Shown here: positions 8,014 through 48,379 of the stretch, piece after piece
Layout of the letters: every line of letters begins with the position of its first letter
Numbering within the stretch: the stretch's first letter is position 1
NCBI GenBank assembly: GCA_023920165.1
Contig: CP089274.1
Span: 3,410,001 to 3,474,000 of the forward strand
Direction of reading: 5' to 3'
Length of the DNA: 64,000 nt
DNA from: Curvularia clavata
Taxonomy: Eukaryota
Translations under genes and position numbers: made by a program
The notes under the pieces: generated by a model
The model's database searches: none
Seen by the model: the letters and a program-made list of their open reading frames with translations, nothing else
What the model was told of the DNA's origin: nothing

Positions 8014-8903
8014 TCTAGACTGTGCTGTCGCGGATGCCGTTGACGGACGGGAGACAATGGACGACTTGATTTGTTTTGGCAGTGCAACCCCGGCGTCCGG
8101 GCTCTGTCGTGGTGCGGTGCGGTGAGTTGCGCAGCCAGCTTCCGCAGAGAAAGGAGGGGTGGTGGTCCGGGTGCGTGTGCTATGCCACGGCCGCAAAACA
8201 AGCGTGCTTACCTAAGGCGTCGCGCTGCCAGGCCGCCCTGTGAGGGTCCTTTGCGGTCCTCGCTGTTTTCGCTGCGTGCTCACCAAAACCTCTCAGTGTA
8301 GACTGCCCATACAATCTCGCGCCTGCGAAACCTTTGGTGAGTCGTCCCCGCCTGCAAATGACGAAGTCGCTTCATCACCAGCACCACTTTTCGCAACCAC
8401 ACCCTTTTTGCACGCGTTTTCCCGGCTCATTTCCCCCAACTACTCCTCTCCCAGCCTTCTTTCTCAATTCTTGCGACTGTCGTCGCTTTCGATTGATTCT
8501 TCGTCGCCGTCACCACCGCGCTCATCCTCGGCCCATCCCATACTGACCGCAAAACAGACCTTTATCAACCCCTTCGATTTTGCTGAATCCCGCTACTTTG
8601 GTGAGTACTCGCTCCTTCTCTCTTCGTAAAATCGCGCATCATCGCGTCGTGCCGTGGTGTTTTGCGACCGCGTCACTCCACGCGCTGCCCAAAGAACCGC
8701 TGCACCCACCACCACTACCCGCGCATTCACCACTACCCAAGATCCCTTTGCCTGCAACCCTGCTAGCGCTGGCCTTTGCCTATATTGCTGGCCTGCCCAC
8801 CACTTACCGCACCTTTCTCCTTTACTTTCTCTCCAAAAATCCCTCTCCCTACTCAACCACCATAGCTCTAATACTCAACAACAGCACATCAACCACCACC
8901 ACC

Positions 8904-9387
8904 ATGCCCAAGGAAAAGACCACCCGCAAGGCTGCCCCCAAGGCCAAGAACGACAGCGGCAAGAAGAAGAAGGGTAAGTTTGCTCACGTGCATTTGCCTA
9001 CTGCTCATTTGCTAACCACTGCAGACCCCAACGCCCCCAAGCGTGGTCTTTCCGCATACATGTTCTTCGCCAACGAGCAGCGCGAGAAGGTCCGCGAGGA
9101 CAACCCCGGCATCAAGTTCGGTAAGTTGAGCACTGTGAGCCCTCTTTTAGTGTGTTTCTAATCTTCTCTCAGGCGAGGTTGGCAAGCTTCTCGGTGAGAA
9201 GTGGAAGGCGCTCAACGAGAAGCAGCGCCAGCCATATGAGGCCAAGGCTGCTCAGGACAAGAAGCGCTACGAGCAAGAGAAGGCCGCTTACCAGGTATGC
9301 TCCATTCTCTGCAAAAGAATCCCCAACCCCTTGACATTCTGCTAACAAACCTAGGCTGCCGACGATGAAGAGGAAGAGTCCGAGTAA
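8904..9387 (+). CDS. NHP6: Non-histone HMG-box protein 6; exons 8904-8973, 9025-9120, 9173-9294, 9355-9387
   Basis: Spliced product [96 protein letters not shown]... is a classic Nhp6 HMG box. All introns are GT-AG with CTAAY branch sites. Confidence 0.96.
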
Positions 9388-10143
9388 AGGAAGCCACTTA
9401 CCAGTGTCTTCTATTACCCTCCAACGGCAACCATGTTGACATCCTGTCGTGCGAGGCCTGGGCCTGACTCTCCCACTCTCTCTCAATTTCTTATGTGATC
9501 TTCCTAGTTTTAATGGGTTCGTAGCTTCCTCGGAGGAATATCTTCGGCTAGCAATTCTGTGGTTCATTGCGATAAGGATAAGTCACAGTTAGTCTCATTT
9601 CAGCGCTGGTGGCTATCGGTCATGATGTTTGGGGCGTCTCATCTTACTTTTGACGCTGTGAAAAGGAGAAACATCACGAAGCTCATGACCAAAGTCTATG
9701 TGTACACTAGTCAAAACTGCGGTATGGAGAATATTTTGCTGCTTAGCTCGTCATGTACTTTTGCGAGTGTCGAGTGATAGACGTGGAGTAGGGGGTGCAC
9801 AGCGTAGCACTGCTCACACTCGCGGTAACTGACATCCCAGCTACGCCTCCCCTAAATGCGTGATGCTGTAGGTGAAGCATAGCATCAGGGCCTTGACAAC
9901 ATGACAGACCCTTTTCCACATATTCACAAGCATAACCCCTTAATCCTGTCATCTTCTGAACTCATTGACCCGACTCCACACCGCTGAACCGGGTACCAGC
10001 ATCTCTCACTCGCGCCTTCCCCGTACAAAGCCACCCCGACCAAACCACTCTTTCTCTCTCTAAACATCCAACTGTATTATACCCCCATCTACATGGCATT
10101 TCTAATTCTCCTTTTCCCCAACAAATCAAAGAAGCATCTTGTA

Positions 10144-10288
10144 GCGTCGTTGGGCTAGTGGCTATGCTATCGCCTTCCCAGCAAATACTGCAAAGAAAGG
10201 CGGGGATCACGGGTGTAAGTGAATGAATAAAACTAGAGAGTTCGAAGACGAGTGCTAACAGATATAAAGTCGAACCCCGTACGGCGCA
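10144..10288 (+). tRNA. tRNA-Gly (anticodon CCC) with a canonical tRNA intron (10181-10197) and a spliceosomal-type intron (10215-10269); exons 10144-10180, 10198-10214, 10270-10288
   Basis: Acceptor stem GCGTCGT/ACGGCGC with discriminator A; D arm GGCT-AGTGGCTA-TGCT; anticodon stem TCGCC/GGCGG with loop TT-CCC-A|A; variable loop GGATC; T stem ACGGG/CCCGT with loop T|TCGAAC. Spliced length is 73 nt, and a T-run lies just downstream. Confidence 0.9.
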
Positions 10289-10296
10289 GTACTTTC

Positions 10297-10302
10297 TTTT
10301 TT
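10297..10302 (+). terminator. RNA polymerase III oligo-T terminator of the tRNA-Gly gene
   Basis: TTTCTTTTTT immediately 3' of the tRNA, with T6 at 10297-10302. Confidence 0.75.
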
Positions 10303-10686
10303 GTGGATATTCTTGCTGGATTGGGGTTGGGGTTGTCTGGGAAGGCGGGGAGGCGGGGTGAGGGCGGAAAGTGGTTGCTCTTATTGAGTATGATGTCACG
10401 AGTAGAATGCGATGGAAGGTGCATCCGTTCTCTATGTGATATTTGTATTCAAGACTTGTAACTTTTTTTCGATAGACGGGCGGTGCAGTGGTAAGCATGT
10501 TTTGATTCATGTACATGCCTCAGGATATCTTTCGAATTCTAGATTCGTCATCTCTCAAGCACAATGCAACAAACATACTTGGGAAGCGGAGCAGCAGGCC
10601 TGGGCCTAATGCAGTTCATGATCGTATGATCAATTCCAACATGTATACCACGTCCACACCTTTTTTTTGTTGCCAACTCACTCACG

Positions 10687-11308
10687 CTATTCCCTCTGCA
10701 ACACCACCATCAACCCCATTATCCCCAGCATGACCTGCTTCAGCCATGGGTGCTCGCTCAGCAGAATGGTAACGTATCCAACAAATGGTATGAAGCCAAC
10801 CACACTCCCAATAACATCTTCTTTGCGGTTGAGAAACGACTGGTCGCGAGCGTAGAGTTCGGTGTCGTCTGCAAGGTTGTTGTCACCTTTTGTGAGCAGT
10901 CGGAGCGGTGTTTTACTGTATCCCAATCATCAGCTCAGAAACACTTTACCAAGACCGTGACAGCGGCATTTATGCTACTGCCGGGTCCGCAAGATATGAT
11001 CAACGCAAGACTCACCCTCCACCATATCTCCTCACCACCCGATGCACAATCGGAATGTCCTTGCCCTTGACATTATACACGACAATCTCTCCTATCTGTG
11101 TGTCCATGCCTCTGTTCCAGAGGAAAAGCAAGTCGCCTCGTTGGAAAGCGGGTTCCATAGATCCGGAGAGTACGACGACAATAGGAGACGGTGAGTTTGA
11201 GACGACGGACAGGCCTTTCCACATCATAAATGCAGTGGAGAGGACGAGTGCGAAGTTCAGGACTTGCGCGGCGAGTTGTCGCGGTTGCATGCCTGCGACG
11301 CCGAACAT
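10687..11308 (-). CDS. SEC11: Signal peptidase complex catalytic subunit; exons 11308-11016 and 10915-10687 (173 aa)
   Basis: [28 protein letters not shown] and LLTKGDNN motifs. One GT-AG intron restores the frame. Confidence 0.96.
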
Positions 11309-20415: not shown

Positions 20416-23021
<2,606 letters not shown>

Positions 23022-43311: not shown

Positions 43312-45594
43312 CTAGGCCCCCACATTGGTTTTTGGAGCCTCCTCTACCGGAGCCTCTCCGACCTTGGCTTTTACAGCTTCTTCTACCTTTGGCTCAGGTG
43401 ACGGCGCTTCTTCGATAATCTCATCAAAGATACCACCTTCTGGTTCTTGGCCCGTACCAATCGCCCGAAGAATCCTCCACGCCCTGCGGAACTCGTCTCG
43501 GATAGCGACTATGCCACGGTGCGTCACTGTTCGCGCGACGTTGTGATCCGTCTCGAAGGGGTCTTCTATGGCGAAGAGATACCGGTTCGTGACCTTCTTT
43601 TCGGCAGTAATCTTCGTTATTGCACTGACCCACCCTTTGCTCTGCTTCGAAAGGATACCACCTGGCGTGCGAAGCGAAAGAACTTCGTTTGTCCAGTGGA
43701 ACTGGGGCGGTCTTGGGTAGCCGTAGCCAGATAAAGCAGCATAGTATTGGAAGAAGCCACGCAGCAACTCTCCGATTGATTGCGTATTCTGCGTCAGACG
43801 GCCTTCTTTTGCTGCCTGTATAATCTCCTCTTCGTTGCGCCAGAAGCGGACTAGATAGCCAGAGATTGTCGTGTTCTTGAAGTATTGCTCCAGAGCAGCC
43901 GCGTCAGTGGGCAGTGGTAAGTTGTGCTGAAGATTTGGGCATACCGGCGGCGTTGCAATATTGACGAGGTAGTGCAGCACCATAAGCACCCATCCATACG
44001 AGGAAAGGGTACCGGAATAGGCGCTGTTGATTTTGCGGCGCTTAGCCCAGGACTTGACGAAGAGAACCATGGGCCGTACCCGAGGATCAGTCAGAGAGTA
44101 ACAACGGAGCATGTGAGTGTTTTGGATGCCAAGCGGGTTTGCGAAGTTGATGTCGCATTGGATACCACAGCCAGTCTTGGGAAAGTCCAGAGGACCAATT
44201 ACCTTTTCCCGCGTCCAAGATTTCTCAGAGCGATTCTGTTGGTCTTTCTTGGCTTTCTGCTCTGTCCCATCACTACCGGCTTCATCTGTTTTCGCAGCGG
44301 GTTGGGGAGATGTGGCCTCTGGAGGCTTTGTCTCCGTTCGAGCCTTCTGTAGGAAGGCAGCTCTTTCCACTAGGTCTGCCCAATTGGCTTCCCAATCTCG
44401 ATCGGTAGTCACTGCTAGATGAGCAGCGAATATCAGTTCATCATCAGTGTCTTTGAATTCCTTGCGAGCAGCAATGTTCCGCTCGTCATCAGCAGGCTCG
44501 AACAACTTGCGGGTAGAGAGTATCAACTCATAATCACTGTCTTTGAATAGCTTTGACCGTGGTAGTAGCTTCATTGGCTGATCTGAAGGGTACTTTTCTT
44601 CTTCAGGGAGGTTGTCCCATTTGCTACGTTCCTCGGTAAGGGCCGTGTACAATGTCTCGGTTGGATGCTGGCAGATCTTCAGAATAGGCACGCGCGTCCG
44701 TGTGAGCAGTCGGCCACCAAACTTTGCATCAAGCACTGCTCGCTCCAACAAACGTGGAACGCTACGATCAATCGCAGTATCATTGGATCTGGTGGGATCT
44801 TTCCATTCTGGTATGACTGCAAGGTCCATATCTGAGCCAGGAAGCCCAAAGCCCGATGCCAGACTGCCAAAGCCGACGAGAGAGATGTTCACTATGTCTC
44901 CCGAGTAGTCCCTGGCAAGTGCTTCTCGCATGATCGCTTCCAGTTGCCGCCTGAACTCCTCTTTGGACTCCAACTCGGACATGGACATTTCAACTTTGGG
45001 AATCTCTTCTGAAGCAATTGTTTCGAGATGTTGGATCTGAGCCTGGGGGTTTTCCTGTGGCTGGATTCTCTGTGTGTGAGGCATATGCGAGTTGAATGGG
45101 CGAGTATCTCCTGGTGGTCGTTGGAGAAATCTTGGAGGATGTGCACGGGGTGTGCCATCTGCATTTGAGTTCCACTGCTGATGAGGCGTCCTGAATGGTC
45201 TAGAAACTTGTTGCGCTTGATTGCCTGGAGGCAAGTCACTTCCAGGCGCGCTATAGAAATTTGCCGAGGACTGCTGATATCGCTGATTGGGGTAGTGTCC
45301 CCGTCCGCCCCCTCTGGGGTGAGGAGTGTTCATTGAGTCGTTCGCATGTTGCCTTTGATTTTGAGCCTGAGTTTGACTCAGAGCAGAGTGATCCTGATGG
45401 GAACCATCAGTGCCACTGGAAAAGCTCCCGCGTCCTCTGCCTCTACCTCGGCCCCGGCCTCGTCCTCGCCCGCGGCCGCGATTCGTGAACTGGGGTTCTT
45501 GGCTGATCGGTCCACCTATGCTCACATTACTAAGTATCATGTTGCGCAACTGGCTCTCCAGTCCAGTGGAATGTGATGAAGTTGTCTGCTCCAT
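43312..45594 (-). CDS. Cid1-family non-canonical poly(A)/poly(U) polymerase (terminal uridylyltransferase-like)
   Basis: GFGSLASGFGLPGSDMDL catalytic motif, RTRVPILK, CDINFAN, VKSWAKRRKIN..GTLSSY and nucleotide-recognition loop AIEDPFETDHNVAR. Confidence 0.88.
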   Translation of the reverse strand: MEQTTSSHSTGLESQLRNMILSNVSIGGPISQEPQFTNRGRGRGRGRGRGRGRGRGSFSSGTDGSHQDHSALSQTQAQNQRQHANDSMNTPHPRGGGRGHYPNQRYQQSSANFYSAPGSDLPPGNQAQQVSRPFRTPHQQWNSNADGTPRAHPPRFLQRPPGDTRPFNSHMPHTQRIQPQENPQAQIQHLETIASEEIPKVEMSMSELESKEEFRRQLEAIMREALARDYSGDIVNISLVGFGSLASGFGLPGSDMDLAVIPEWKDPTRSNDTAIDRSVPRLLERAVLDAKFGGRLLTRTRVPILKICQHPTETLYTALTEERSKWDNLPEEEKYPSDQPMKLLPRSKLFKDSDYELILSTRKLFEPADDERNIAARKEFKDTDDELIFAAHLAVTTDRDWEANWADLVERAAFLQKARTETKPPEATSPQPAAKTDEAGSDGTEQKAKKDQQNRSEKSWTREKVIGPLDFPKTGCGIQCDINFANPLGIQNTHMLRCYSLTDPRVRPMVLFVKSWAKRRKINSAYSGTLSSYGWVLMVLHYLVNIATPPVCPNLQHNLPLPTDAAALEQYFKNTTISGYLVRFWRNEEEIIQAAKEGRLTQNTQSIGELLRGFFQYYAALSGYGYPRPPQFHWTNEVLSLRTPGGILSKQSKGWVSAITKITAEKKVTNRYLFAIEDPFETDHNVARTVTHRGIVAIRDEFRRAWRILRAIGTGQEPEGGIFDEIIEEAPSPEPKVEEAVKAKVGEAPVEEAPKTNVGA

Positions 45595-46243
45595 TTTGTT
45601 GGGTTAGTGGAGTGATGGTTTAGTCTCTTTTCTTTTGAAGTCTCTGCTGCCCGCAGAAGATGACGGTTGCAAAGGCCAGAACTGTCTCGATGTATTCTTC
45701 TTTCCAAGAATATGGCGGTGTGATTGTATGCTCTTGAGGAACAATCGCTCTAGTAGCAGGCCAGTTCCTCCTTTGAGGTTTCTTGTGGCGGTTGCAATGT
45801 CACCGTTACAGGCCCGAGGCCCTTGGCTGAGGCCGCCGCACTCTGACTACACGGGTGCCTAGAGTGGAGTGAGAAGTCGATATTTTTCTGGCTCAGCCTC
45901 CATGTGTCCAAGAGACTTTGATTCCGACCGCGCCCCTGTTGGTGCAAGCAAGCGCAAACTGTTGGTTACAATTAATGGCAATGCTTGAACTGTTGGTCAT
46001 AGTGGCACTATGGGGGGGCTGAGGGCAGGGCAGGGCAGGGCAGGGCCTCACGGTGAGCGTTTGGCCTTGGCGCGCTAATCGACTAGCGTGGAGCTGTGAC
46101 GTTCCAACTGCGGTTCGGTCTCGAAACACAACGCTCCTTGGGACAAAGGCGACTTTCTTCGTCTCCGGCCAGTCTTTATCTGCCCACCTGCTGCCCACCT
46201 GCTTCCTTCATTCTTGTCTCCATCTCAACAGCCACGCTCCACG

Positions 46244-48379
46244 ATGAACGGCGTCATGAATGGAAGCCAACAGCCTGCTGCTGCCCCTGCTGCGCCTGTC
46301 GCCTCAAATGGCCAGCAGCAGACGCAGACGCAGACGCAACCGCAGCAGCAGGCACCTGTTCGCCGCCGTCGCCCGCGCCCCCAAGCCGATGTCCTGCGAA
46401 AGCCGCGTCGCCCACTGCAGAACATCACGAAGCCCATGGTATCTTTATCGAAGATGAACGAAAGCAGGAAGCCTCCGCCAGGTCCCGCGGCCGATGGCAC
46501 TCATTCCAAAGACGCGCTGCGACAGGAGTATCTTGACAAAGGTGCTACCGTCTTTCCGCTCATTGTCAGCCGCAAGGACCTGAAAGAACTGCGACACCAT
46601 GTTATGCGGCTCCAGAGCAAGAGTCACGTTGATATTACCGATGAGAAACAGTTCACGCCACCCATCAAACTCCATCGCCGCGACCCCCGCGCGCCCCCAA
46701 GCGGAATAGGATCACACTACGAAGAAGAAGACACAAAAGAGGACCTGGAAGAGATCAAAGAGCGTGAGCGCATTGAACAGCAGAAGGAAGAGCGCCGCAA
46801 GGTACGCGAGGAGAACCAGGCCAAGATTGCGCCCACTGGCATGAAGAAGCCTCCTGCCTTCCAGAAGAAGACAGAGCAGAAGTACCGGCCCGATGATACC
46901 CCAGAAGCAAAGAAGCGGCAACTGTTGCGCTACGAAGAGACGCTGCCATGGCACTTGGAAGATTATGAGAACAAGCAGACGTGGGTAGGCACCTACGAGT
47001 CAGAGCTATCCGAGACACACGTCATGCTCACAGCTACACGGCCTGGCGATCCGAGCACAGCCATACAGATGGCGCCCATGGAGCGCTGGTACAGATTCAA
47101 CGTCAAGGGCAAGATCAAAGCGGCGGGTGATGATGTAGACAAAATCCTGGCCAAGGTCGAGAGCGGCGGGCCTAGATTCTTTGCTGAGCTTGAGAGGCGT
47201 CAAGTAGAGCGTGCCAAGGCTGAAGAAGAAGCAAGAAAGTTCAGTGGAGTGCGCACACGTGTGGGCGGTGGTGCAGACGACGAGGGCCGAATCAAGCGGG
47301 AACGTCCTGGCGAAGATACATTCCGGCCCAAGCTGGAGGTTGATGCTGATGATATCGATTTCAACCTTGAAGAAGACTTTGCAGATGATGAAGAAGGTCT
47401 CAACGGTCTCTTTGAGGGTGAGGAGCAGGACGTCAAAGAAGCAGCTGAGAAGCTGAAACGCGACCAACTACAAGCAGCACTTTGGGATCGTCCTGATGAG
47501 GAAGCCCTAGCTCAAAAGGAAGAAGAGGACCGAAAGCTTGCCGAGGAAACAAGAGCTATGGAGAAGATCACGCGCAAGACACTAGCCAAACGCGAGAAGC
47601 AATACGACTATCTCGACAGCGACCCTGAGAATCCCTACCTTACTGAGAGTGAATCAGATACTGACTCTGAAGCGGAGCGACAGCAAGCAAAGGAAGAGGC
47701 GGAGAAGAAAGCCGCTGAGCAAAATGGCAAAGCACCAGAAGCTGGCAATGTTCCGTCTGGTGCATCCACCAAGGGCTCTAACACTCCTTCAGGGAACCAT
47801 AAGCCAGGGGAATCCAAGAGCAAGAAACGGCCCGGCTCGCCCAACCTTTCGGAAGCTAGTGGCAACGAATCGTCGCGTAAGAAGCACAAGAAGAAACACC
47901 ACGATAAGCTGGCTGATGGGTCTCGAAAATCCACTCTCGGTAATCTCAAGGGCGCAGGTTCTGGTAGTGACAGTGAGATGACCGACGCTGGTAAGAAGCG
48001 CAAGAAAGAAAAGAAAGAGAAGAATCGCCTCATGCATGGCGGATCTCCTGTCGGCACTCCTGGTGCCAGCCGAGCAGGCAGCCCAGCAGCGAATGGCAGC
48101 CGCGCTGGCAGCCCGTCGGGCGGCCCATCCAGACCTCCTCTACCTTCTGCAAAAGAGATTTACGAATCATTGCCACCTCAAGGCATGAACATTCAAAATC
48201 TCATTGTGAAGTTCAAAGGTCGTGTTGACAAAAGCAACACGCAACTGTTTATCAAGCTGGTCAAGGCTGTCTCTAGCTTTGACAAAGCGAAGAGTTGGCT
48301 CACGCCATTGGAGAAGATGCCGTCTGAAGATCAAATCAACGCATTTATGAATACTGCCAATGCACCCAGACCTACGTAG
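46244..48379 (+). CDS. TFG1: Transcription initiation factor IIF large (alpha) subunit
   Basis: LRHHVMRLQS, PIKLHRRDPR, LRYEETLPWHLED, TWVGTYE, ERWYRF, acidic DIDFNLEEDFADDEE and a charged C-terminal region. Confidence 0.88.
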   Translation: MNGVMNGSQQPAAAPAAPVASNGQQQTQTQTQPQQQAPVRRRRPRPQADVLRKPRRPLQNITKPMVSLSKMNESRKPPPGPAADGTHSKDALRQEYLDKGATVFPLIVSRKDLKELRHHVMRLQSKSHVDITDEKQFTPPIKLHRRDPRAPPSGIGSHYEEEDTKEDLEEIKERERIEQQKEERRKVREENQAKIAPTGMKKPPAFQKKTEQKYRPDDTPEAKKRQLLRYEETLPWHLEDYENKQTWVGTYESELSETHVMLTATRPGDPSTAIQMAPMERWYRFNVKGKIKAAGDDVDKILAKVESGGPRFFAELERRQVERAKAEEEARKFSGVRTRVGGGADDEGRIKRERPGEDTFRPKLEVDADDIDFNLEEDFADDEEGLNGLFEGEEQDVKEAAEKLKRDQLQAALWDRPDEEALAQKEEEDRKLAEETRAMEKITRKTLAKREKQYDYLDSDPENPYLTESESDTDSEAERQQAKEEAEKKAAEQNGKAPEAGNVPSGASTKGSNTPSGNHKPGESKSKKRPGSPNLSEASGNESSRKKHKKKHHDKLADGSRKSTLGNLKGAGSGSDSEMTDAGKKRKKEKKEKNRLMHGGSPVGTPGASRAGSPAANGSRAGSPSGGPSRPPLPSAKEIYESLPPQGMNIQNLIVKFKGRVDKSNTQLFIKLVKAVSSFDKAKSWLTPLEKMPSEDQINAFMNTANAPRPT

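What the first reader, a model, noticed from the sequence alone, without database searches (positions are those of the whole stretch)
10238..10249. The T-loop intron carries a replacement B-box-like Pol III promoter element
Seen: the insertion splits the tRNA's own B box (GGT|TCGAAC), which should cripple TFIIIC binding. Yet the intron interior contains GAGTTCGAAGAC (core GTTCGAA at 10240-10246), about 90 bp downstream of the A-box-like TGGGCTAGTGG (10151-10161), and a T6 terminator follows the gene. Established: the S. pombe U6 gene has a B-box-like element inside its mRNA-type intron. Inference: the intron supplies the promoter element it destroyed, making it hard to lose and arguing the gene is functional. 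The match to GWTCRANNC is imperfect at the last position.
Basis: partly seen in the sequence, partly recalled or inferred. Interest (0 to 1): 0.8.

Follow-up and report, generated by a model that had tools for sequence, protein, structure and literature searches.

The report
Conserved B-box-like motif in tRNA intron
A fungal glycine tRNA gene is split in its T loop by an mRNA-type intron, and that intron carries a short promoter-like motif that is also kept in a related species, though the motif could equally serve as an RNA pairing partner for the next exon.

Summary
GAGTTCGAAGAC is at 10238-10249, inside a 55-nt GTAAGT...TGCTAAC...AG insertion (10215-10269). The insertion splits the T loop of an otherwise intact tRNA-Gly(CCC) gene (10144-10288). 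The gene also has a normal 17-nt anticodon intron, an A box and a T6 run.

In the window alone the motif is within chance. However, I found one orthologous locus in another fungus (3 metagenome contigs, syntenic with SEC11). Its exons are identical apart from one D-loop indel. It has an 86-nt intron at the same T54|T55 site. GTTCGA is again present, again 7 nt before TGCTAAC, and there it fits GWTCRANNC fully.

Three points weaken the B-box reading:
- GTTCGA is the exact complement of the first six bases of the 3' exon, so RNA pairing explains the conservation equally well.
- B-box positions 52, 61 and 62 are not conserved.
- The junction remnant (AG|TCGAACCC) keeps as many TFIIIC-contacted bases (5 of 6) as the intronic motif.

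RNA contigs show only the unspliced form, and there are no transcription or TFIIIC data. Verdict: partly supported. An intron-borne B box is the leading reading (about 0.4), but it is not shown.

The parts
10144..10288 (+). tRNA-Gly(CCC) gene. Exons are 10144-10180, 10198-10214 and 10270-10288; A73 is at 10288.
   Evidence: ARAGORN finds a 73-nt cloverleaf, Gly(ccc), once both insertions are removed. The exons match the ortholog at 72 of 72 aligned bases plus one D-loop indel.
10151..10161 (+). A box (tRNA positions 8-19), TGGGCTAGTGG
   Evidence: It fits T1, G3, A7 and G11 of the A-box query quoted in PMC11724288.
10181..10197 (+). Canonical 37/38 tRNA intron, 17 nt
   Evidence: The ortholog has a 35-nt intron at the same site.
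10215..10269 (+). Spliceosomal-type intron of 55 nt between T54 and T55
   Evidence: It carries GTAAGT, TGCTAAC and AG, like the three RNA-verified NHP6 introns of 51, 52 and 60 nt in the same window. The same site is occupied by an 86-nt intron in the ortholog.
10215..10220 (+). 5' splice site GTAAGT
   Evidence: Identical in the ortholog.
10238..10249 (+). The finding: B-box-like GAGTTCGAAGAC. The conserved core GTTCGA is at 10240-10245.
   Evidence: The core is conserved in the ortholog, 7 nt before the branch site in both. It keeps 5 of 6 TFIIIC-contacted bases.
10253..10259 (+). Branch site TGCTAAC; the branch A at 10258 is 11 nt before the 3' splice site
   Evidence: Identical in the ortholog.
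10268..10269 (+). 3' splice site AG
   Evidence: The ortholog has TAG at the same junction.
10270..10278 (+). Remnant of the native B box (T55-C63, TCGAACCCC). Its first six bases are complementary to the intronic GTTCGA.
   Evidence: the 11-mer at 10267-10277 keeps 5 of 6 contacted bases. Helix probability is 0.74-0.78 in free folding and 0.28-0.30 with the cloverleaf enforced.
10297..10302 (+). T6 run, a candidate Pol III terminator
   Evidence: The ortholog has T8-T10 starting 13 nt after A73.

Best explanation
The locus is a functional nuclear tRNA-Gly(CCC) gene, conserved between at least two fungal species. Its T loop, and so its native B box, is split between T54 and T55 by a U2-type spliceosomal intron. 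The gene is most likely transcribed by Pol III, given its A box, the absence of a T run of 4 or more inside the gene, and the T run just downstream. The intronic GTTCGA core is a selected element. It most likely restores the 5' part of a B box for the tau-B module of TFIIIC by supplying G53, T54, T55, C56, G57 and A58. It probably acts together with, or redundantly to, the junction remnant that still offers T55-C62. After transcription the spliceosome would remove the T-loop intron and the tRNA endonuclease the anticodon intron.

Shown here: the gene anatomy, conservation of the exons, conservation of the intron position and splice signals, and conservation of GTTCGA.
Inferred: Pol III transcription, TFIIIC binding, splicing, and promoter function of the motif.

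Because the B-box core is palindromic, the motif necessarily also pairs with the 3' exon in the RNA. This reading treats that pairing as a by-product.
For: - Removing the intron restores the cloverleaf.
- The orthologous locus is syntenic: the SEC11 last exon is 87.8% identical over 197 nt and 61 of 65 aa. Its tRNA exons are 72 of 72 identical, while 11 of 28 fourfold sites in SEC11 differ.
- blastn aligned parts of the tRNA gene and the SEC11 last exon, plus one stretch that runs from the intron end through the last exon into the T run; it aligned no other intergenic DNA.
- The intron sits at the identical site, with GTAAGT, TGCTAAC and AG kept.
- The only shared 6-mers of the two introns are GTAAGT, GTTCGA, TGCTAA and GCTAAC.
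- GTTCGA lies 7 nt before the branch site in both. The chance of GTTCGA anywhere in shuffles of the ortholog intron interior is 0.025.
- The ortholog copy CGTTCGATACG has G53, T54, T55, C56, G57, A58 and C61.
- TFIIIC base-specific contacts are G53, T55, C56, G57, C61 and C62. C56G and G57C lower SUP4 binding 370-fold and 56-fold (PMC11811891, passages; PMC11724288, passages).
- The motif shortens the A-B linker to 77 bp, against 105 bp for the junction remnant. In the ortholog the figures are 119 and 153 bp.
- T runs follow the gene in both lineages.
- With the cloverleaf enforced, the competing RNA helix is weak in the window (probability 0.28-0.30, hairpin -4.4 kcal/mol).
- Precedent: the B block of S. 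pombe U6 lies in its mRNA-type intron (PMC5855946, passages).
Against: - There is only one independent comparison.
- With gaps, the stretch from GTTCGA to the branch site aligns fairly well, so the 3' part of the intron keeps residual homology. At 61% per-site identity (17 of 28 fourfold sites), six conserved bases in a row have p of about 0.05 by descent alone.
- Positions 52, 61 and 62 are not conserved. The window has A52, A61 and C62; the ortholog has C52, C61 and G62. The window copy therefore lacks C61, a contacted base.
- The junction remnant also scores 5 of 6 contacted bases in both lineages, so a replacement may not be needed.
- The ortholog's A-B linker of 119 bp lies outside the 31-93 bp range quoted for yeast tRNA genes (PMC11724288).
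- The conserved block has exactly the bounds predicted by pairing with U55-C60.
- RNA contigs of two RNA runs (X4, X6) carry the locus only in the unspliced form, on one contig that joins both neighbouring genes. Splicing and a discrete Pol III transcript are therefore not shown.
Confidence: 0.4

Rival explanations
1. RNA-level element. The intronic GUUCGA is kept because it pairs with U55-C60 at the start of the 3' exon. This extends the T stem coaxially, places the 5' splice site at the helix junction, and puts the branch site and 3' splice site in the apical loop. The structure would help or regulate splicing or folding of the precursor. The likeness to a B box is then a by-product of the palindromic T-loop sequence.
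For: The reverse complement of GTTCGA is TCGAAC, which is 10270-10275. Free folding gives helix probability 0.74-0.78 in the window and 0.91-0.95 in the ortholog. With the cloverleaf enforced the ortholog gives 0.84-0.87, with a hairpin of -10.3 kcal/mol. The conserved block ends exactly where the T stem begins, and the flanking B-box positions 52, 61 and 62 are not conserved.
Against: The helix is weak in the window once the cloverleaf is enforced (0.28-0.30, -4.4 kcal/mol). I know of no requirement for such a helix in short fungal introns; the three verified NHP6 introns were not examined for one. A helix abutting the 3' splice site would more often hinder splicing than help it (general knowledge, not tested). 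Both copies are the exact Watson-Crick 6-mer, with no G-U variants.
Confidence: 0.25
2. The motif has no function of its own. It is residual homology, a relic of how the intron arose, or chance. TFIIIC uses the junction remnant, or transcription relies on upstream elements without a B box, as proposed for Cyanidioschyzon merolae.
For: In the window alone the motif is within chance. The junction remnant keeps 5 of 6 contacted bases in both lineages. The gapped alignment shows residual similarity between GTTCGA and the branch site, which gives p of about 0.05 for 6 of 6 by descent. In C. merolae the A and B boxes are often interrupted by introns, and TATA-driven, TFIIIC-independent transcription is proposed (PMC3978253, passages). 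Weakly similar CAACAAA/CATCAAA blocks lie upstream in both lineages.
Against: The motif was named before the ortholog was seen, and it recurs there at the same distance from the branch site, although the 5' parts of the introns share no 6-mer beyond GTAAGT. The chance of GTTCGA anywhere in the shuffled ortholog intron is 0.025. Whether this fungus has TFIIIC subunits was not checked here.
Confidence: 0.2
3. The locus is transcribed by Pol II, alone or as read-through from a neighbouring gene. It is spliced co-transcriptionally, and the tRNA is then cut out by RNase P and RNase Z. The motif is irrelevant to Pol III.
For: Spliceosomal splicing is normally coupled to Pol II (general knowledge). 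In two RNA runs from two studies (X4, X6) one contig runs unbroken from the last NHP6 exon across the tRNA locus into SEC11 (9353-10916).
Against: A contig across two genes does not show a single transcript, and its strand is unknown. In the other two RNA runs laid (X15, X16) the NHP6 contigs end near 9740, about 400 nt before the gene. A T run directly follows the gene in both lineages, and there is an intact A box. Pol III transcripts can be spliced, as for U6 in S. pombe.
Confidence: 0.1

Closest known systems
S. pombe U6 snRNA gene: B block inside its mRNA-type intron (Frendewey et al. 1990, as cited in PMC5855946)
   Same: A gene with an internal A block, an mRNA-type (spliceosomal) intron, and a B-box-like element inside that intron.
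   Different: Here the gene is a tRNA, and the intron splits the gene's own B box and leaves a remnant at the junction. Only the 6-base core is conserved, not the full consensus. Neither Pol III transcription nor splicing is shown here. I did not see the original 1990 paper (not held).
S. cerevisiae SNR6: B block downstream of the coding region
   Same: The B block is displaced from its usual place, with an atypical A-B distance of about 200 bp that TFIIIC tolerates (PMC5855946).
   Different: That B block lies outside the transcript and there is no intron.
Disrupted nuclear tRNA genes of Cyanidioschyzon merolae
   Same: Nuclear tRNA genes whose A and B boxes are interrupted by introns at non-canonical positions (PMC3978253).
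   Different: Those introns carry bulge-helix-bulge motifs and are cut by the tRNA endonuclease, TFIIIC subunits were not found, and upstream TATA-like sequences are proposed as the promoter. Here the splice signals are spliceosomal, and by eye I saw no bulge-helix-bulge motif at the junctions.
Canonical type 2 Pol III promoter of tRNA genes (A box 8-19, B box 52-62)
   Same: The A box, the T-run terminator and a GTTCGA core are all present.
   Different: The B box is not contiguous. Its two candidate versions each lack one of the six contacted bases.

Membership tests
Pol III type 2 promoter B box | Bases contacted base-specifically by TFIIIC: G53, T55, C56, G57, C61, C62 (PMC11811891) | tested here: inconclusive
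   The window's intronic motif has 5 of 6 (A at 61). The ortholog's has 5 of 6 (G at 62). The junction remnant also has 5 of 6 (A at 53) in both.
Pol III type 2 promoter B box | A-B linker within the natural range, quoted as 31-93 bp for yeast tRNA genes (PMC11724288) | tested here: inconclusive
   The window gives 77 bp (inside the range) and the ortholog 119 bp (outside). SNR6 works at about 200 bp.
Pol III type 2 promoter B box | Conserved in orthologous genes beyond neutral expectation | tested here: met
   The GTTCGA core is present in 3 of 3 orthologous contigs, which form one lineage. Shuffle p is 0.025, and p by descent is about 0.05. Flank positions 52, 61 and 62 are not conserved.
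Pol III type 2 promoter B box | Bound by TFIIIC and required for transcription | not testable with these tools
   Needs ChIP, EMSA and mutagenesis.
Pol III transcription unit | T-run terminator shortly after the gene and no T run of 4 or more inside it | tested here: met
   T6 lies 8 nt after A73. T6+ within 25 nt occurs at 0.9-1.1% of window positions. The ortholog has T8-T10. No TTTT occurs in any of the 4 introns, but shuffles give P(no TTTT) of 0.58-1.0, so that part carries no weight.
U2-type spliceosomal intron | GT...AG borders, a fungal 5' splice site, a CTAAC branch site 10-20 nt before the AG, and a length typical of the genome | tested here: met
   GTAAGT, TGCTAAC, AG and 55 nt, compared with verified NHP6 introns of 51, 52 and 60 nt carrying GTAAGT or GTATGC and TGCTAAC or TTCTAAT. 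The signals are kept in the ortholog.
U2-type spliceosomal intron | Removed from the RNA at these borders | tested here: inconclusive
   No joint at 10214/10270 in any of the 4 runs laid. The two runs that cover the locus show the unspliced form. Contigs drop rare forms, and ordinary RNA-seq misses tRNAs.
Bulge-helix-bulge intron cut by the tRNA endonuclease at a non-canonical site | Two 3-nt bulges around a 4-bp helix at the exon-intron junctions | tested here: not met
   By inspection of both junctions, and in the predicted folds, no such helix forms between the intron ends. The check was informal; no dedicated search was run.
Intron-borne B block of the S. pombe U6 type | The B block lies in an mRNA-type intron of a Pol III gene and is the gene's only B block | tested here: inconclusive
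   A B-like core is in the intron, but a second partial B box remains at the junction. Pol III transcription is not shown.

The most novel reading that the evidence does not exclude
A nuclear tRNA gene depends on the spliceosome. A conserved mRNA-type intron splits the T loop and native B box of tRNA-Gly(CCC) and itself carries the B-box core that TFIIIC needs. Losing the intron without exact repair would then silence the gene, so the intron secures its own retention. This would be the first tRNA counterpart of the S. pombe U6 arrangement, and the first spliceosomal intron reported in a tRNA gene.
Probability: 0.35. Interest if true: 0.85.

Novelty: new variant of a known kind. Interest (0 to 1): 0.7.

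Why it matters
Eukaryotic nuclear tRNA introns are held to sit at position 37/38 and to be removed by the tRNA endonuclease. One stated reason is that the A and B boxes lie inside the coding sequence. Here a spliceosomal-type intron sits in the middle of the B box, yet the gene is kept under strong purifying selection in two species.

If the intronic GTTCGA acts as the B box, that would show how a Pol III gene can tolerate, and then become dependent on, an intron that destroys its promoter. It would also extend the U6 precedent to tRNAs and link tRNA supply to the spliceosome. If instead the motif works as an RNA helix, it is a new example of exon-intron pairing in a very short Pol III-type precursor. 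Either way the locus gives a compact system in which the two readings can be tested.

Six searches of the held paper library found no report of a spliceosomal intron in a tRNA gene. A 2014 review of tRNA gene diversity (PMC4033280) contains no word starting with 'spliceosom'.

Tried and rejected
- No whole genome is held for this window. I could not look for other tRNA-Gly(CCC) copies, other T-loop introns or TFIIIC genes.
- The index of earlier findings gave nothing by place, sequence or words.
- A metagenome scan with a 5'-half pattern found nothing. The ortholog's D loop is 1 nt shorter, which explains the miss.
- The 3'-half pattern gave 10 loci. 3 of 10 are the ortholog. 2 of 10 (L007, L010) are an unrelated CCA-ended tRNA. 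5 of 10 are chance matches in GC-rich DNA, judged by eye.
- The same pattern in genome contigs gave 4 loci, all titled as bacteria and not inspected further. In viral contigs it gave 0.
- The records behind L001, L003 and L005 cannot be searched further, so only 600 nt of flank was available.
- Runs X15 and X16 do not cover 9742-10660. No conclusion is drawn from that gap.
- Absence of TTTT in the introns is uninformative.
- A scan that removed 241 candidate GT...branch...AG stretches from both strands of the window gave a tRNA only at this locus (1 of 241).
- The exact GGTTCGAAACC at 21623-21633 on the minus strand looks, by eye, like coding sequence read antisense. I took it as chance; no ORF or homology check was made.
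- ARAGORN with introns allowed also called a tRNA-Leu(cag) with a 989-nt intron at 45407-46487 on the minus strand. It has a mismatched acceptor stem and an odd T loop, and I rejected it as spurious.
- ARAGORN's own placement of the anticodon intron (Trp, cca) was rejected in favour of the canonical 37/38 placement, which gives Gly(CCC). G1-C72, C2-G71, G3-C70 and A73 fit glycine, as recalled from general knowledge.
- A bulge-helix-bulge reading was rejected by inspection.
- The Frendewey 1990 paper is not held.

Full report
**What is at the site**

The + strand at 10144-10288 reads as a tRNA gene with two interruptions. ARAGORN with default settings finds no tRNA in the window. Rfam finds none either, at gathering scores or at E up to 10 over 9900-10560.

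When 10215-10269 is removed, ARAGORN finds a 73-nt cloverleaf with a 17-nt intron. When 10181-10197 is also removed, at the canonical 37/38 placement, it calls tRNA-Gly(ccc). All four stems pair. The T loop is restored to the standard seven bases, and G18, G19, T33 and A73 are present.

The 55-nt insertion begins with GTAAGT. It has TGCTAAC at 10253-10259 and ends in AG 11 nt after the branch A. The neighbouring NHP6-like gene has three introns that are verified by joints in RNA contigs. These are 51, 52 and 60 nt long, with GTAAGT or GTATGC and with TGCTAAC or TTCTAAT. The insertion therefore has the anatomy of an ordinary spliceosomal intron of this genome. A scan that removed 241 such candidate stretches from both strands of the window produced a tRNA only here.

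**The observation**

- GAGTTCGAAGAC is at 10238-10249.
- The A-box-like TGGGCTAGTGG is at 10151-10161, 89 bp before the motif core.
- The T loop is split as GGT|TCGAAC.
- A T6 run lies at 10297-10302.

Judged in the window alone, the motif is not beyond chance:
- GTTCGA occurs 23 times against 30 expected.
- Matches to the 11-letter consensus with at most 2 mismatches number 148 against 164 expected. That gives about a 5% chance for a 55-nt stretch.
- 11-mers keeping at least 5 of the 6 TFIIIC-contacted bases occur at 0.004 per strand-nt.

**An orthologous locus**

No genome is held for the window. A metagenome scan with the tRNA's 3' end gave 10 loci. Three of them (L001, L003, L005) are 99.3-99.6% alike and so represent one organism. 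They carry the same gene.

About 400 nt downstream in L005 lies the last exon of SEC11. It is 87.8% identical to window 10688-10884 and matches at 61 of 65 residues. Fourfold-degenerate sites differ at 11 of 28. This is therefore the orthologous locus of another species, at substantial neutral divergence. blastn aligned parts of the tRNA gene and the SEC11 last exon, plus one stretch from the end of the intron through the last exon into the T run, and no other intergenic DNA.

The tRNA exons are identical at 72 of 72 aligned bases, with one D-loop indel. The anticodon intron is 35 nt there, against 17 nt in the window. The T-loop intron is 86 nt, against 55 nt, and sits at exactly the same T54|T55 site with GTAAGT, TGCTAAC and TAG. 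A run of 8-10 T follows the gene. In the window, T6 or longer within 25 nt downstream is found at only 0.9-1.1% of positions.

These facts indicate a gene kept functional in both lineages, and therefore an intron that is removed precisely. Together with the A box, they also fit Pol III termination.

The two T-loop introns share only four 6-mers: GTAAGT, GTTCGA, TGCTAA and GCTAAC. GTTCGA lies 7 nt before TGCTAAC in both. The ortholog's copy, GTTCGATAC, fits GWTCRANNC completely, whereas the window's fails at the last position.

The motif was named before the ortholog was seen, so the fair test is its presence in the second intron. That probability is 0.025 in shuffles of the intron interior, and far lower at the same offset.

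One caution applies. With gaps, the stretch between GTTCGA and the branch site aligns moderately well, so this part of the intron keeps some homology. At 61% per-site identity, six conserved bases have p of about 0.05 by descent alone. The result is positive but rests on one comparison.

**Why the B-box reading is not settled**

1. GTTCGA is the reverse complement of TCGAAC, the first six bases of the 3' exon. This is unavoidable, because the B-box core is palindromic. Free folding predicts this helix with probability 0.74-0.78 in the window and 0.91-0.95 in the ortholog. With the cloverleaf enforced the values are 0.28-0.30 and 0.84-0.87. The conserved block ends exactly where the T stem begins, as pairing would predict. 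Since the exon does not vary, covariation cannot decide between the readings.

2. The positions that complete a B box are not conserved. The window has A52, A61 and C62. The ortholog has C52, C61 and G62.

3. The native box is not fully destroyed. TFIIIC contacts G53, T55, C56, G57, C61 and C62 base-specifically, and C56G and G57C lower SUP4 binding 370-fold and 56-fold (PMC11811891, passages; yeast structure PMC11724288, passages). By that list the intronic motif keeps 5 of 6 in both lineages, and so does the junction remnant AG|TCGAACCC.

4. The A-B linker for the intronic motif is 77 bp in the window but 119 bp in the ortholog. That is outside the 31-93 bp range quoted for yeast tRNA genes, although SNR6 works at about 200 bp.

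**RNA data**

Two runs from two studies, X4 and X6, are shown to be RNA by the NHP6 intron joints. Each has one contig running unbroken from 9353 to 10916. It crosses the tRNA locus with both insertions retained. In none of the 4 runs laid is there a joint at 10214/10270. Contigs drop rare forms, carry no strand, and ordinary libraries miss tRNAs. This shows neither splicing nor its absence, and it does not identify the polymerase.

**Weighing**

A gene under this much constraint needs an efficient promoter. The motif supplies G53 and T54, which the junction remnant lacks, and it brings a B-like core 28-34 bp closer to the A box. The competing helix is weak in the window, and there is a direct precedent in S. 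pombe U6 (PMC5855946, passages).

I therefore rank the readings as follows:
- intron-borne B-box function, possibly shared with the junction remnant: about 0.4;
- a selected RNA helix: about 0.25;
- no function, with TFIIIC using the remnant or with upstream-driven transcription as proposed for C. merolae (PMC3978253, passages): about 0.2;
- Pol II transcription: about 0.1.

**Novelty**

A B block inside an mRNA-type intron of a Pol III gene is known for U6. What would be new is the host gene being a tRNA and the intron splitting the gene's own B box. Six library searches returned no report of a spliceosomal intron in a tRNA gene. I judged them from the listings and from passages read in seven papers, six of them from those listings and PMC11724288 from the separate TFIIIC search. 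The library lacks most subscription journals, so this is not proof that none exists.

Noticed in passing
window 10215-10269 and L005 (reverse complement) 515-600: The parent phenomenon: a spliceosomal-type intron at T54|T55 of a nuclear tRNA-Gly(CCC) gene, conserved in position between two species. The same gene also has a canonical 37/38 intron, so maturation of one tRNA would need two different splicing systems.
   Followed up: yes
window 8884-9740 (+): The gene just upstream is an NHP6-like HMG-box protein with three verified introns. In yeast, Nhp6 promotes Pol III transcription of SNR6 (PMC5855946). The adjacency may be coincidence.
   Followed up: partly
window 10310-10370; L005 (reverse complement) about 650-730: A G-rich tract (GGGGTTGGGGTTG...GGCGGGGAGGCGGGG) starts about 20 nt after the T run, and a compositionally similar G-rich tract lies at the same place in the ortholog. 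Its function is unknown.
   Followed up: no
L005 (reverse complement) about 95-145: Short telomere-like repeats (CCTAAT, CCCTGAT units) lie about 300 nt upstream of the orthologous tRNA gene. They are absent from the window's upstream flank.
   Followed up: no
L005 (reverse complement) 534-554: The ortholog's longer T-loop intron contains a perfect 8-bp hairpin (CTTGCTTC, loop CAAGC, GAAGCAAG) that the window's intron lacks. This accounts for much of the length difference.
   Followed up: no
window 9353-10916: In two RNA runs a single contig bridges the convergent NHP6 and SEC11 genes across the 0.9-kb intergenic region. This suggests read-through or overlapping 3' ends in those conditions. 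In the two metatranscriptome runs the contigs stop near 9740 and start at 10661 or 10723.
   Followed up: partly
window 21623-21633 (-): An exact match to GGTTCGAAACC, the only zero-mismatch B-box consensus hit in the window. By eye it appears to lie in coding sequence read antisense. I took it as chance; no ORF or homology check was made.
   Followed up: partly
window 9970 and 10660: The RNA runs X4 and X6 differ from the window by C>T at 9970 and by one extra T after 10660. They therefore come from a slightly different strain, and the tRNA gene and its introns are identical in them.
   Followed up: no
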